The position numbers and the translations under genes were made by a program. From a virus (taxonomy: Duplodnaviria > Heunggongvirae > Uroviricota > Caudoviricetes), in IMG/VR virus record IMGVR_UViG_3300045988_005640: a DNA stretch of 64,000 nucleotides. One strand, given 5' to 3'. The notes beneath the pieces were generated by a model that had not been told where the DNA came from, made no database searches, and saw only the letters and a program-made list of their open reading frames with translations. Positions within the stretch are counted from its first letter, which is position 1. Every line of letters starts with the position of its first letter. This document shows positions 5,236-5,367 of this stretch, piece after piece.

Positions 5236-5367
5236 CAGAAGACCGTTTACAGCAAAACTTAAACAATCTATTTCTCCGGTAAAGAAAAGGCGAAGGTTCG
5301 ATTCCTTCACTCGGCAGATGTCGAGTTGGTGTAATGGTAGCACTTAAGATGATAAACAACGGTCTGG
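5236..5367 (+). ncRNA. candidate structured RNA: stem-closed element unit 4 enclosing a circularly permuted tRNA-like module
   Basis: Closing stem AGACCGTT (5240-5247) with AACGGTCT (5358-5365). Inside, in order: anticodon-like hairpin TTTCT-CCGGTAA-AGAAA (5271-5287), T-arm GAAGG-TTCGATT-CCTTC (5292-5308), acceptor 3' strand ACTCGGC (5309-5315), 4-nt cap AGAT, acceptor 5' strand GTCGAGT (5320-5326), TG, D-arm GTGT-AATGGTA-GCAC (5329-5343). Confidence 0.45.

What the first reader, a model, noticed from the sequence alone, without database searches (positions are those of the whole stretch)
5236..5367. Circularly permuted tRNA-like module capped at the acceptor stem and enclosed by a long closing stem
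A complete set of tRNA parts is present but in permuted order: anticodon-like hairpin (5271-5287), T-arm with canonical TTCGATT loop (5292-5308), acceptor 3' strand ACTCGGC (5309-5315), a 4-nt cap AGAT, the matching acceptor 5' strand GTCGAGT (5320-5326, pairing with one G-U), U8-G9, and a D-arm GTGT-AATGGTA-GCAC (5329-5343). The flanks AGACCGTT (5240-5247) and AACGGTCT (5358-5365) pair to close it. This cannot yield a standard tRNA by RNase P and 3' trimming. The topology fits a Y-RNA-like tRNA mimic of the kind bacterial Ro60 (Rsr) partners with, or a permuted tRNA needing unusual processing. A vWA/MIDAS protein with possible Ro60 character lies 1 kb upstream (2838-4253).
Basis: partly seen in the sequence, partly recalled or inferred. 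Interest (0 to 1): 0.85.

Follow-up and report, generated by a model that had tools for sequence, protein, structure and literature searches.

The report
Phage Y-RNA-like tRNA mimic
A Felix O1-type phage encodes, inside its tRNA gene cluster, small RNAs that look like tRNAs with capped ends and that are very probably the RNA partners of a neighbouring Ro60-like ring protein, a pairing that recurs in many phages.

Summary

The element is one of four paralogous modules in the window (4586-4662, 4752-4822, 5147-5224, 5233-5370). All share a bulged closing helix followed by U[UA]CAGCAA.

The same helix-plus-motif recurs on the gene strand next to DUF2828 genes: 53 of 75 viral-contig loci against 7 on the opposite strand, and 30 of 30 model hits in bacterial genome loci. 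All five helices covary strongly.

Some relatives are the circular permutation: open acceptor stem, capped motif helix.

It fails two tests for YrlA membership: there is no GNCGAA motif and no match to Rfam RF02553.

I rate it a new variant of a known kind: Y-like RNAs for a second Ro60-like protein family. No RNA or binding data exist, so expression and protein binding are inferred.

The parts
5233..5370 (+). Module M4, the finding: a Y-like RNA with a tRNA-like domain. In order: outer stem UUAC/GUAA; internal loop AGA/G; helix S AGACCGUU/AACGGUCU; motif UACAGCAA; variable hairpin; T arm; capped acceptor-like stem; U-G; D arm.
   Evidence: Sequence; MFE fold; covariation with Moogle, HP1 and Sf13; covariance model R1 scores 151 bits; pair counts.
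5248..5255 (+). Single-stranded motif UACAGCAA, directly 3' of the 5' strand of helix S. It is the proposed protein-recognition element.
   Evidence: Present in all four window modules and in modules beside DUF2828 genes in mycobacterial, Aeromonas, Campylobacter, Listeria and Yersinia phages. Strand and position enrichment shown.
5292..5343 (+). tRNA-like core. T arm 5292-5308 (loop UUCGAUU); acceptor-like stem 5309-5315 with 5320-5326, capped by AGAU; U5327 G5328; D arm 5329-5343 (loop AAUGGUA).
   Evidence: Only hit of the strict scan in the window. The acceptor stem covaries: ACUCGGC/GUCGAGU, ACCCUUC/GAAGGGU, ACACGU/GCGUGU. The Rfam tRNA model matches only part of it, 22 bits against a threshold of 29.
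5271..5287 (+). It is not conserved.
   Evidence: Replaced by unrelated sequence in Moogle and HP1. It corresponds to the 'V' stem-loop of YrlA (PMC4201824).
4586..4662 (+). Module M1, a short Y-like RNA between tRNA-Glu and tRNA-Met. Outer stem GAC/GUC; loop AGA/G; helix S AGACCAA/UUGGUCU; motif UUACAGCAA.
   Evidence: R1 scores 43.1 bits, E 8.6e-6.
4752..4822 (+). Module M2, a short Y-like RNA between tRNA-Met and tRNA-Asn. Outer stem UUGC/GCAA; loop AGA/G; helix S AGACCGU/ACGGUCU; motif AUUCAGCAA.
   Evidence: z -2.63. R1 scores 45.5 bits, E 2.6e-6.
5147..5224 (+). Module M3, a short Y-like RNA directly upstream of M4. Outer stem AGC/GCU; loop AGA/G; helix S AGACCAA/UUGGUCU; motif AUACAGCAA.
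   Evidence: Nearly invariant across Ounavirinae. R1 did not report it at the threshold used.
2838..4253 (+). Gene for the Ro60-like protein (471 aa; Pfam DUF2828 + DUF7788; helical ring plus vWA domain with an intact MIDAS motif). It is the proposed partner of M1-M4.
4272..4392 (+). Two sigma-70-like promoter matches (4272-4300 and 4363-4392) between the Ro60-like gene and the first tRNA. They would drive one transcript carrying tRNA-Pro to tRNA-Ile together with M1-M4.
   Evidence: Consensus scan only, 10 of 12 matches each. The total number of promoter-like sites is no higher than in shuffles. Inferred, not shown.
5369..5514 (+). Long hairpin abutting M4. It holds a minimal helix-motif-helix hairpin, CAGAC-CUUAAGCAA-GUCUG (5470-5488). 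Possibly a fifth module.
   Evidence: MFE -48.3 kcal/mol, z -5.09. The base stem and the minimal hairpin covary with Moogle. That it belongs to the system is tentative.

Best explanation
M4 (5233-5370) is a non-coding RNA of the Y RNA type, and M1-M3 are its shorter sisters.

Proposed steps, all inferred:
1. The modules are transcribed with the phage tRNAs from promoters just downstream of the Ro60-like gene.
2. They are freed when RNase P and the 3'-end processing nucleases cut out the flanking tRNAs. Spacers between modules and tRNAs are only 3-10 nt.
3. The 5' and 3' ends of each module pair into a bulged helix: outer stem, an AGA/G internal loop, then helix S. Single-stranded U[UA]CAGCAA follows directly.
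4. This helix plus motif is the docking site for the phage Ro60-like ring protein. This is by analogy with the bulged helix and GGUCCGA or GNCGAA motif through which Y RNAs bind Ro60 and Rsr.
5. In M4 the interior folds into a tRNA-shaped domain: a T-loop/D-loop elbow plus a capped 7-bp acceptor helix.
6. That domain acts as the effector end. It is read by tRNA-binding factors, and it either tethers the ring to a host or phage RNA enzyme or acts as a tRNA decoy.
7. The ribonucleoprotein then supports RNA or tRNA quality control, or counter-defence, during infection.

Shown here by computation: the structure, its covariation, the Ro60 fold of the neighbouring protein, and the conserved same-strand linkage of RNA and gene.

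Not shown: transcription, processing, binding and function.
For: Structure and covariation
- With model R1 and its alignment A7 (26 hits), 94.4% of cells pair, against 61.8% in shuffles and 38-42% in slid controls. 25 of 28 pairs change on both sides. The covariation score is 0.53, against 0.14 in shuffles and 0.05-0.09 in slid controls.
- The acceptor stem shows three compensated variants within Ounavirinae.
- The outer stems of the four window modules covary with one another: GAC/GUC, UUGC/GCAA, AGC/GCU, UUAC/GUAA.

Protein
- The fold is that of Ro60 and the MIDAS motif is intact.

Linkage of RNA and gene
- The T arm, capped stem and D arm, enclosed by motif and closing stem, recur 150 nt downstream of the DUF2828 'Ro-like' gene of Mycobacterium phage BigCheese (33% protein identity). 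No tRNA gene is annotated within the 11-kb locus fetched around it.
- The same module occurs in 11 more places in viral contigs. Each reaches its closing score in 0-4 of 500 shuffles.
- Helix-plus-motif modules number 105 on the gene strand against 15 on the opposite strand. 59 lie within 500 nt of the gene. 53 of 75 loci have one on the gene strand within 1.5 kb, against 7 on the opposite strand.
- R1 gives 62 of 64 hits on the gene strand in phage loci and 30 of 30 in bacterial genome loci.

Architecture
- It equals that of YrlA (PMC4201824).

Independent phenotype
- In the Felixounavirus Bas63, deleting the ortholog gp130 reduces plaque size on hosts that carry the ppl defence. The authors guessed that some downstream 'tRNAs' might be Y RNAs (PMC11482910).

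Context
- DUF2828 genes sit beside tRNA arrays and RNA ligase or RtcB genes in Listeria, Aeromonas and Campylobacter phages.
Against: - There is no transcript, processing or binding evidence for any module.
- The MFE of M4 alone is unremarkable (z -1.66), and so is that of M3 (z -0.96).
- The Ro60 link is at fold level only. A profile of 40 DUF2828 proteins shows no similarity to the phage G TROVE protein (probability 0.2). Pfam TROVE does not match. PDB sequences do not match.
- The Rsr-binding motif GNCGAA is absent, and Rfam YrlA does not match even at E<=10.
- Alignment A7 was fitted to the model's structure, which inflates pairing.
- My scanners required perfect pairing, so '15 of 15 paired' holds by construction.
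- About 30% of loci show no module by my criteria. Vibrio phage ValKK3 shows none within 5 kb.
- The promoter calls are consensus matches at background frequency.
Confidence: 0.7

Rival explanations
1. The modules are structured spacers of the tRNA precursor that act only in cis. They would be folding insulators or recognition sites for RNase E, RNase III or RNase P that order tRNA maturation, with no role for the Ro60-like protein.
For: In the window they are packed between tRNAs with 3-10-nt spacers. DUF2828 genes often lie beside tRNA arrays, so the linkage could be to the array rather than the protein.
Against: - BigCheese has three modules right after the gene, with no tRNA gene annotated in the fetched 11-kb locus.
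- Bacterial loci such as L160 carry modules but no ordinary tRNA.
- Modules cluster within 500 nt of the gene, on its strand.
- A conserved single-stranded motif beside a helix that keeps R-G-A/U-C-Y pairs looks like a protein site rather than a spacer.
- The canonical-TROVE phage G locus has no such motif on the gene strand.
Confidence: 0.12
2. The modules are cis or feedback regulators of the Ro60-like gene itself: a leader or trailer operator through which the protein controls its own mRNA. They would not be stable trans-acting RNAs.
For: In the Campylobacter, Listeria, Aeromonas and most bacterial loci, the modules lie directly upstream of the gene start.
Against: - In Felix O1-type phages and BigCheese they lie downstream of the gene.
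- In the window they lie beyond a hairpin that follows the stop codon and beyond two promoter-like sites, inside a tRNA operon.
- An operator does not explain multiple copies or a full tRNA-like domain with T-loop and D-loop identity nucleotides.
Confidence: 0.08
3. M4 is a circularly permuted or split tRNA gene that yields a working tRNA (anticodon GGU, Thr) after circularisation or two-piece assembly, as in Cyanidioschyzon.
For: All tRNA arms can be named in permuted order. tRNAscan-SE calls a 129-nt 'tRNA-Thr-GGT' here in some GenBank records. The acceptor-like stem is 7 bp, a length that allowed RNase P cleavage of M. smegmatis YrlA (PMC4201824).
Against: - The 'anticodon' hairpin occupies the variable-arm position. 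Its loop has C rather than U where U33 would lie, and it is absent in Moogle and HP1.
- The true anticodon-arm position is taken by helix S and the motif.
- The cap is 3-8 nt, with no CCA and no processing motif.
- ARAGORN finds nothing here, and the Rfam tRNA model stays below threshold.
- The phage already has tRNA-Thr(UGU).
- Relatives lack the acceptor stem altogether (L040, L024).
Confidence: 0.03
4. M4 is debris: the 3' half of one decayed tRNA copy followed by the 5' half of a tandem duplicate. The flanking complementarity would be chance.
For: It lies in a 26-gene tRNA array where duplications are plausible. Chen et al. warn that tRNA dimers can mimic YrlA (PMC4201824). The phage G hit is of that kind.
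Against: - The region matches in 267 phage records, 246 of them over at least 80% of the query.
- Changes are compensatory in every helix.
- Stable short caps (UACG, GUAA, GCAA, GAAA) replace the spacer in unrelated phages.
- The closing stem plus motif is rarely reached in shuffles.
- No adjacent tRNA pair in the window scores in the scan.
Confidence: 0.02

Closest known systems
YrlA, the tRNA-like Y RNA of bacterial Ro60 (Rsr). Rfam RF02553; Chen et al. 2014, PMC4201824.
   Same: - Same module order: protein-binding stem formed by the ends, variable hairpin, T arm, capped acceptor-like stem, D arm.
- tRNA identity nucleotides are kept: T-loop UUCGA or UUCAA, D-loop A14, G18-G19 and A21, and U8. 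The 15:48 pair is A:U or G:C in 9 of 15 modules.
- Encoded within about 1 kb of a Ro60-fold gene, on the same strand.
- Several Y-like RNAs per locus, processed from one precursor in M. smegmatis.
- Known from phages as well as bacteria.
   Different: - The partner protein is DUF2828+DUF7788, not Pfam TROVE.
- The 5' motif is U[UA]CAGCAA, not GNCGAAN0-1G.
- The Rfam YrlA model gives no hit at E<=10 and none at gathering score in 33 related loci.
- The modules are embedded inside a tRNA array.
- Relatives exist in the opposite circular permutation.
Metazoan and Deinococcus Y RNAs (Rfam RF00019; Yrn1)
   Same: The 5' and 3' ends pair into a helix interrupted by an asymmetric internal loop, with semi-conserved base pairs next to a conserved strand. 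The interior is variable and is thought to recruit effectors. Yrn1 also has a T-arm-like loop, in a different orientation from YrlA (PMC4201824).
   Different: No GGUCCGA-type sequence and no match to the family models. Here the conserved strand is single-stranded and lies inside the helix, not within it.
Thermus phage phiLo Ro60 with Yrl1 and Yrl2 (PMC12135203)
   Same: A phage-encoded Ro60-fold ring with adjacent Y-like RNA genes. The phiLo protein is the top Foldseek match (9kop, 9l5y). It was shown to bind its RNAs and to form complexes with host PNPase.
   Different: phiLo Ro60 is a recognised TROVE protein, and its RNAs use a CGAA motif in an internal bulge. The paper's text does not mention a tRNA-like domain.
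Bas63 gp130 (Felixounavirus JohannRWettstein; PhageMaP preprint PMC11482910)
   Same: It is the ortholog of ORF 2838-4253: 97.9% identity by tblastn to that phage (H117). It was already noted as structurally similar to Ro60, as lying upstream of the tRNA genes, and as a counter to the ppl defence. The authors suggested that some of the tRNA genes might be Y RNAs.
   Different: No RNA was identified there. The candidates found here are not among the annotated tRNAs. They lie in the gaps between them.
Permuted tRNA genes (Cyanidioschyzon) and two-piece (permuted) tmRNA
   Same: The 3' half of the tRNA-like domain is encoded before the 5' half. In this RNA class both circular permutations occur in nature, as they do for tmRNA.
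   Different: - There is no anticodon arm, no CCA, no tag reading frame and no pseudoknots.
- ARAGORN finds no tmRNA or tRNA at the locus.
- No Rfam tmRNA family reached its gathering score in the window or matched at E<=10 in 5085-5520.

Membership tests
YrlA (Rfam RF02553; Chen et al. 2014) | T-arm-like and D-arm-like stem-loops with tRNA-invariant nucleotides, separated by a capped 'acceptor' stem-loop | tested here: met
   Window 5292-5343. Conserved with covariation in 15 or more modules from distant phages.
YrlA (Rfam RF02553; Chen et al. 2014) | Encoded within about 4 kb of a Ro60 ortholog, on the same strand | tested here: inconclusive
YrlA (Rfam RF02553; Chen et al. 2014) | GNCGAAN0-1G motif near the 5' end (the presumed Rsr-binding site) | tested here: not met
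   The 5' region reads AGACCGUUUACAGCAA. The conserved motif across the family is U[UA]C[AC]GCAA.
YrlA (Rfam RF02553; Chen et al. 2014) | Score at or above the curated Rfam gathering threshold (69 bits) | tested here: not met
   No YrlA match in 5085-5520 at E<=10, none at gathering score in the window, and none in 33 related loci. The model is in the library: it gave a 24-bit hit in phage G.
YrlA (Rfam RF02553; Chen et al. 2014) | Bound by Ro60/Rsr in vivo; carries pseudouridine and dihydrouridine made by TruB and DusA | not testable with these tools
   Needs immunoprecipitation and modification mapping.
tRNA (Rfam RF00005) | Acceptor stem formed by the free 5' and 3' ends, plus an anticodon arm between the D arm and the variable region | tested here: not met
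   The acceptor stem is capped by AGAU, and the anticodon-arm position is occupied by helix S and the motif. ARAGORN makes no call. The Rfam tRNA model gives 22 bits against a threshold of 29, covering model positions 7-64 only.
Permuted tRNA gene (Cyanidioschyzon type) | An intact anticodon arm, with the 3' and 5' halves joined through a processable intervening sequence to give a mature tRNA with CCA | tested here: not met
   No conserved anticodon arm. The cap is 3-8 nt and carries no CCA.
Two-piece (permuted) tmRNA | A tRNA-Ala-like acceptor with G3:U70, a tag reading frame, and pseudoknots | tested here: not met
   ARAGORN finds no tmRNA in the window. No Rfam tmRNA family reached its gathering score in the window or matched at E<=10 in 5085-5520. 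The acceptor-like stem has U2:G71, not G3:U70.
Ro60 / TROVE proteins (for ORF 2838-4253) | A ring of helical repeats closed by a vWA domain with a MIDAS site | tested here: met
Ro60 / TROVE proteins (for ORF 2838-4253) | Sequence match to Pfam TROVE (PF05731) or to solved Ro60 sequences | tested here: not met
   Pfam gives only DUF2828 and DUF7788. phmmer against PDB sequences finds nothing relevant. hhalign against phage G TROVE gp540 gives probability 0.2.

The most novel reading that the evidence does not exclude
DUF2828 proteins and these RNAs form a second, previously unrecognised Ro60/Y-RNA-type ribonucleoprotein family, with three distinctive properties.
- It has its own RNA code: helix S with R-G-A/U-C-Y pairs, followed by single-stranded CAGCAA.
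- Its tRNA-like members exist in both circular permutations. In one the ends lie at helix S and the acceptor is capped, as here. In the other the ends form an open acceptor stem, sometimes with an encoded CCA, and helix S is capped, as in Oscillospiraceae-type loci.
- The open form would be matured, and possibly charged, like a tRNA.

The particle would use tRNA mimicry to protect or repair phage tRNAs, or to defeat host defences such as ppl.
Probability: 0.35. Interest if true: 0.85.

Novelty: new variant of a known kind. Interest (0 to 1): 0.72.

Why it matters
Ro60 and its Y RNAs are conserved from bacteria to humans, yet their function is still poorly understood. The bacterial and phage cases known so far all involve recognised TROVE proteins.

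This work points to a second, large Ro60-like family. Homologs occur in 710 of the sequenced phage records searched. They include Felix O1-type, Listeria, Campylobacter, Staphylococcus, Vibrio and mycobacterial phages. At least 453 places in bacterial genomes also encode one.

The family has a defined candidate RNA partner and a short recognition motif that can be mutated.

One member, Bas63 gp130, already has a knockout phenotype against a defence system. The RNAs named here make the question 'what does a Ro60/Y-RNA particle do for a virus?' directly testable in E. coli.

There is also a practical point. The locus is wrongly annotated as a 129-nt tRNA-Thr in some GenBank records. The open-acceptor relatives score as tRNAs in Rfam, so phage 'tRNA' counts may include Y-like RNAs.

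Tried and rejected
- Rfam at gathering score on the window found only 23 tRNAs. At E<=10 on 5085-5520 it gave only a partial tRNA match and noise.
- ARAGORN made no call at the locus.
- The thermodynamic z-score alone is weak, so I did not use it as evidence.
- phmmer of the protein against PDB sequences found nothing. hhalign against a TROVE protein found nothing. Only fold comparison shows the Ro60 relationship.
- A literature search for 'DUF2828' returned five unrelated plant or tardigrade papers. The Annual Review on bacterial Ro60 is not held.
- A relaxed motif-plus-stem scan of the whole window gave dozens of hits on both strands and is not specific. I used only strand-controlled and position-controlled counts.
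- MAFFT on 15 diverse modules misaligned the acceptor, D and closing helices. I therefore built the model from the four Ounavirinae sequences with a hand-written structure.
- Adding BigCheese to the seed shifted its closing stem by one column, so it was dropped.
- The BLAST hit in Bacillus phage G, next to a TROVE gene, looked like a known phage YrlA. It is a T arm followed by tRNA-His, the dimer artefact that Chen et al. warn about.
- The DUF5681 ORF upstream is not a general partner. It is found only in Ounavirinae-like loci.
- The retron Eco2 paper that mentions Felixounavirus is irrelevant.
- Capped-helix-S units are not enriched in the viral-contig set (21 against 22). That form is confined to the bacterial-genome set.
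Full report
**What the window is.** The sequence is a Felix O1-type phage (Felixounavirus). The 429-nt stretch around the finding matches 252 phage records. Nearly all are Felixounavirus or Mooglevirus phages of Escherichia, Salmonella, Shigella and Citrobacter. 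ARAGORN finds 26 tRNA genes on the + strand between 4419 and 9791. The finding lies in the 429-nt gap between tRNA-Asp (ends 5087) and tRNA-Lys (starts 5517).

**Checking the observation.** These are the closing stem, the hairpin at 5271-5287, the T arm, the 7-bp acceptor-like stem capped by AGAU, U-G and the D arm.
- The minimum-free-energy fold of 5230-5375 reproduces all of these helices. Its energy is not unusual (z -1.66), so stability alone proves nothing.
- A strict pattern scan (T arm, capped stem, 2 nt, D arm) hits once in both strands of the 64-kb window. None of the many adjacent tRNA pairs scores.
- Known detectors do not explain the element. ARAGORN is silent. Rfam gives only a sub-threshold partial tRNA match (22 bits against 29) and no YrlA match at E<=10.
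- Some GenBank records annotate a 129-nt 'tRNA-Thr-GGT' from tRNAscan-SE, equal to window 5187-5315. This is an artefact that spans two modules.

**Close relatives.** I aligned the gap with Citrobacter phages Moogle and HP1 and Shigella phage Sf13, which are 74-86% identical over the element.
- The T arm and D arm are invariant.
- The acceptor-like stem changes by compensated substitutions: ACUCGGC/GUCGAGU, ACCCUUC/GAAGGGU and ACACGU/GCGUGU. Each has a different cap.
- The closing stem tolerates a C-to-U change that keeps a G-U pair.
It occupies the variable-arm position, not the anticodon position.

It is not met.

**The neighbouring protein.** ORF 2838-4253 matches Pfam DUF2828 and DUF7788 only and has no sequence match in the PDB.
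- A model built from 40 homologs is confident (pLDDT 89.8, pTM 0.89).
- The twelve best Foldseek matches in the PDB are all Ro60 or Rsr structures, aligned over the full length.
- The MIDAS residues are invariant in the family.
- The relationship holds at fold level only. A profile of the family shows no similarity to the TROVE protein of Bacillus phage G.
- Annotators of mycobacteriophages already call homologs 'Ro-like RNA binding protein'.
- A 2024 preprint on the Felixounavirus Bas63 noted that its ortholog gp130 resembles Ro60, lies upstream of the tRNA genes and counters the ppl defence. The authors guessed that some of the tRNA genes might be Y RNAs, but identified none (PMC11482910).

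**Four modules, not one.** The window holds four paralogous units on the + strand:
- M1, 4586-4662
- M2, 4752-4822
- M3, 5147-5224
- M4, 5233-5370 (the finding)

Each has the same plan:
- an outer stem of 3-4 bp that differs between copies but always pairs (GAC/GUC, UUGC/GCAA, AGC/GCU, UUAC/GUAA);
- an asymmetric internal loop, AGA opposite G;
- a 7-8-bp helix, which I call S (AGACC../..GGUCU);
- single-stranded U[UA]CAGCAA directly after the 5' strand of S.

M1-M3 have small variable interiors. M4 holds the tRNA-like domain. The modules sit 3-10 nt from the flanking tRNAs. Two sigma-70-like sites lie between the protein gene and the first tRNA, but such sites are no more frequent here than in shuffles.

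**The same RNA beside the same gene in distant phages.**
- The strict scan also hits Mycobacterium phage BigCheese, 150 nt downstream of its DUF2828 gene (33% protein identity). The 11-kb locus fetched has no annotated tRNA.
- That gap holds three tandem units of the form GUGG..-UA-ACAGCAA ... ..CCAGU. The middle one carries the T arm, capped stem and D arm.
- Helix-plus-ACAGCAA units also lie next to the gene, on its strand, in Aeromonas phage 4_4572, Campylobacter phage CP81, Listeria phage List-36 and Yersinia phage P778.

In 75 further DUF2828 loci from viral metagenome contigs:

| Measure | Gene strand | Opposite strand |
|---|---|---|
| Exact ACAGCAA with an adjacent stem | 66 | 7 |
| Slightly relaxed motif with an adjacent stem | 105 | 15 |
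| Loci with a module within 1.5 kb of the gene (of 75) | 53 | 7 |

Of the 66 exact-motif modules, 39 lie within 500 nt of the gene.

Twelve tRNA-like modules from nine non-Ounavirinae loci (BigCheese and eight viral contigs) are each enclosed by the motif and a closing stem of different sequence. With flanks shuffled, the observed closing score is reached in 0-4 of 500 trials per module.

**An independent covariance-model test.** I built model R1 from only the four Ounavirinae M4 sequences, with my own structure.

| Search set | Size | Hits | On gene strand |
|---|---|---|---|
| Phage loci and the window (85 sources) | 911 kb | 64 at E<=10 | 62 |
| Bacterial genome and MAG loci encoding a homolog (80) | 503 kb | 30 at E<=1 | 30 |

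- The first search recovered M1 and M2, and full-length matches in many unrelated contigs.
- In the second, most hits lie just upstream of the gene.

On the 26 best hits (alignment A7):

| Measure | Observed | Shuffled columns | Partner slid 1-3 columns |
|---|---|---|---|
| Cells forming a standard pair | 94.4% | 61.8% | 38-42% |
| Covariation score | 0.53 | 0.14 | 0.05-0.09 |

In addition, 25 of 28 pairs show changes on both sides, and no shuffle reached any observed value. The alignment is fitted to the model, which favours pairing, but the margin is large. All five helices contribute.

**tRNA likeness.**
- Across 15 modules, the T-loop begins UUCGA (13) or UUCAA (2).
- The two inner T-stem pairs are always G-C.
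- The D-loop starts with A in 14, contains GG in all and ends with A in all. The linker is UA or UG in 14.
- The positions equivalent to the 15:48 tertiary pair are A:U or G:C in 9 of 15, and purine:pyrimidine in 13.
- Some relatives keep the T and D arms but have no acceptor stem. Some keep only a T arm. The conserved piece is therefore the tRNA elbow.

**Both circular permutations exist.** In bacterial-genome loci such as L125 (Oscillospiraceae), L160, L164 and L170, the Rfam tRNA model hits 100-124-nt RNAs just upstream of the DUF2828 gene. ARAGORN does not call them tRNAs.
- They have an open 7-bp acceptor stem (with an encoded CCA in three of the eleven), a D arm and a T arm.
- In place of the anticodon arm they carry a helix that encloses a capped hairpin, immediately followed by UA(A)CAGCAA.
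- Read around the circle, this is the same order as M4. Here the ends are at the acceptor stem and helix S is capped. In M4 the ends are at helix S and the acceptor stem is capped.
- Capped-S-plus-motif units are enriched on the gene strand in the bacterial-genome set (69 against 17) but not in the viral-contig set (21 against 22). The two forms are therefore lineage-specific.
- In both forms, helix S keeps R-G-A/U-C-Y pairs 5-6 nt upstream of CAGCAA.

**How it most likely works.**

Shown by computation:
- a conserved, covarying structure;
- a Ro60-fold neighbour;
- a tight same-strand linkage across Proteobacteria, Actinobacteria, Firmicutes and Campylobacter phages;
- a conserved helix-plus-single-strand motif.

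Inferred:
- The modules are co-transcribed with the tRNAs and released by tRNA processing.
- Helix S and CAGCAA dock the RNA on the ring protein, as the bulged helix and GGUCCGA or GNCGAA motif do for Ro60 and Rsr (PMC4201824).
- The tRNA-like domain recruits a tRNA-binding factor or nuclease, or acts as a decoy.

Precedents are the Rsr/Y-RNA/PNPase machine and the phiLo Ro60/Yrl/PNPase complexes (PMC4201824; PMC12135203). Three observations point to RNA repair, RNA quality control or counter-defence:
- DUF2828 genes often sit beside tRNA arrays.
- They often sit beside RNA ligase or RtcB genes.
- Bas63 gp130 has a ppl phenotype.

The 7-bp capped stem of M4 could also be an RNase P substrate, as in M. 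smegmatis YrlA. That is speculation.

**Comparison with what is known, and novelty.** The element works like YrlA and shares its architecture. It fails two defining tests: the GNCGAA motif and the curated Rfam model. The model is present in the library, since it scored 24 bits on a dimer artefact in phage G. The partner protein is also not a recognised TROVE protein. I therefore do not file it as YrlA.

The Ro60 likeness of the protein was already noted for this phage genus. I found no description of the RNA partner, its motif or its two topologies in the searchable literature. That library omits most subscription journals. I rate it a new variant of a known kind.

**Limits.**
- No expression, processing or binding data exist.
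- About 30% of loci lack a module by my criteria. Vibrio phage ValKK3 shows none within 5 kb.
- My scanners impose perfect pairing.
- The promoter calls are at background frequency.

Noticed in passing
window 5366-5518: A 146-nt hairpin with an 18-bp perfect base stem (MFE -48.3 kcal/mol, z -5.09) fills the rest of the gap up to tRNA-Lys. The base stem covaries with Moogle. Inside it is a minimal hairpin, CAGAC-CUUAAGCAA-GUCUG (5470-5488; Moogle has CAAACC-CUUUAGCAA-GGUUUG), that looks like a stripped-down module. Its 5' end overlaps the outer stem of M4 by 2 nt.
   Followed up: partly
window 5088-5150: The stretch just after tRNA-Asp is almost invariant across Ounavirinae and forms two or three hairpins (GAGAGGGC/GCCCCUC; CCUUUAAAGG). 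Fold z is -2.74. Its function is unknown. It could be a processing or promoter-associated element for M3 and M4.
   Followed up: partly
window 5187-5315 (for example MZ726792.1 27251-27379): Several GenBank Felixounavirus records annotate a 129-nt 'tRNA-Thr-GGT' here from tRNAscan-SE. Others list 'tRNA-OTHER' or pseudo-tRNAs nearby. The call joins part of M3 to the T arm of M4 and is an artefact.
   Followed up: yes
window 4419-9791: The 26 phage tRNAs cover 19 amino acids. There is no tRNA-Trp.
   Followed up: no
window 6244-6765: An ORF with a PD-(D/E)XK endonuclease domain (PF11645) sits inside the tRNA array. As listed, its start overlaps tRNA-Ser (6314-6400). The domain match begins at residue 62, so the real start is probably downstream of the tRNA. 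It may be a homing-type nuclease.
   Followed up: no
window 2385-2756: A 123-aa DUF5681 protein is encoded directly upstream of the Ro60-like gene. tblastn finds it at the same position only in Ounavirinae-like loci (Felix O1 group, Moogle group, Yersinia P778, L016). It is therefore not a general partner of the system.
   Followed up: yes
L091 (Bacillus phage G, JN638751.1) 3889-4034: An unannotated tRNA-like piece lies 2 kb downstream of the TROVE-domain gene gp540, inside a tRNA array. Its T arm is identical to the window's GAAGGUUCGAUUCCUUC. The Rfam YrlA model scores only 24 bits, and that match spans the piece and the next tRNA-His. No CAGCAA motif lies on the gene strand of this locus.
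   Followed up: partly
L125 1-3000 (Oscillospiraceae bacterium 50-58, JBCLQE010000001.1): About nine CAGCAA-type motifs lie in the 3 kb upstream of the DUF2828 gene. Four are open-acceptor tRNA-like RNAs of 114-119 nt. ARAGORN also reports a 'tRNA-???' with a 4-nt anticodon (2033-2109). L164 has a similar odd call at 2288-2361.
   Followed up: partly
L037 1257-1707: This viral contig carries a circularly permuted tmRNA gene 3.3 kb upstream of its DUF2828 gene (ARAGORN tag ANTNFALAA; Rfam tmRNA_permuted, 71.7 bits). It also has a module at 4423-4546 and a 113-nt open-acceptor tRNA-like RNA at 4218-4330.
   Followed up: no
L010, L008 and L009 (Listeria List-36, Aeromonas 4_4572, Campylobacter CP81): In List-36 and 4_4572 the DUF2828 gene lies within a few kb of RNA repair genes: RtcB-type 'tRNA splicing ligase', RNA ligase, RNA ligase 2, and a phosphohydrolase. 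In all three phages it lies beside tRNA genes. This matches the RNA-repair context of bacterial rsr operons.
   Followed up: partly
window 4264-4295: A 12-bp hairpin starts 11 nt after the stop codon of the Ro60-like gene. It overlaps the -35 element of the first promoter-like site and has no T run after it.
   Followed up: no
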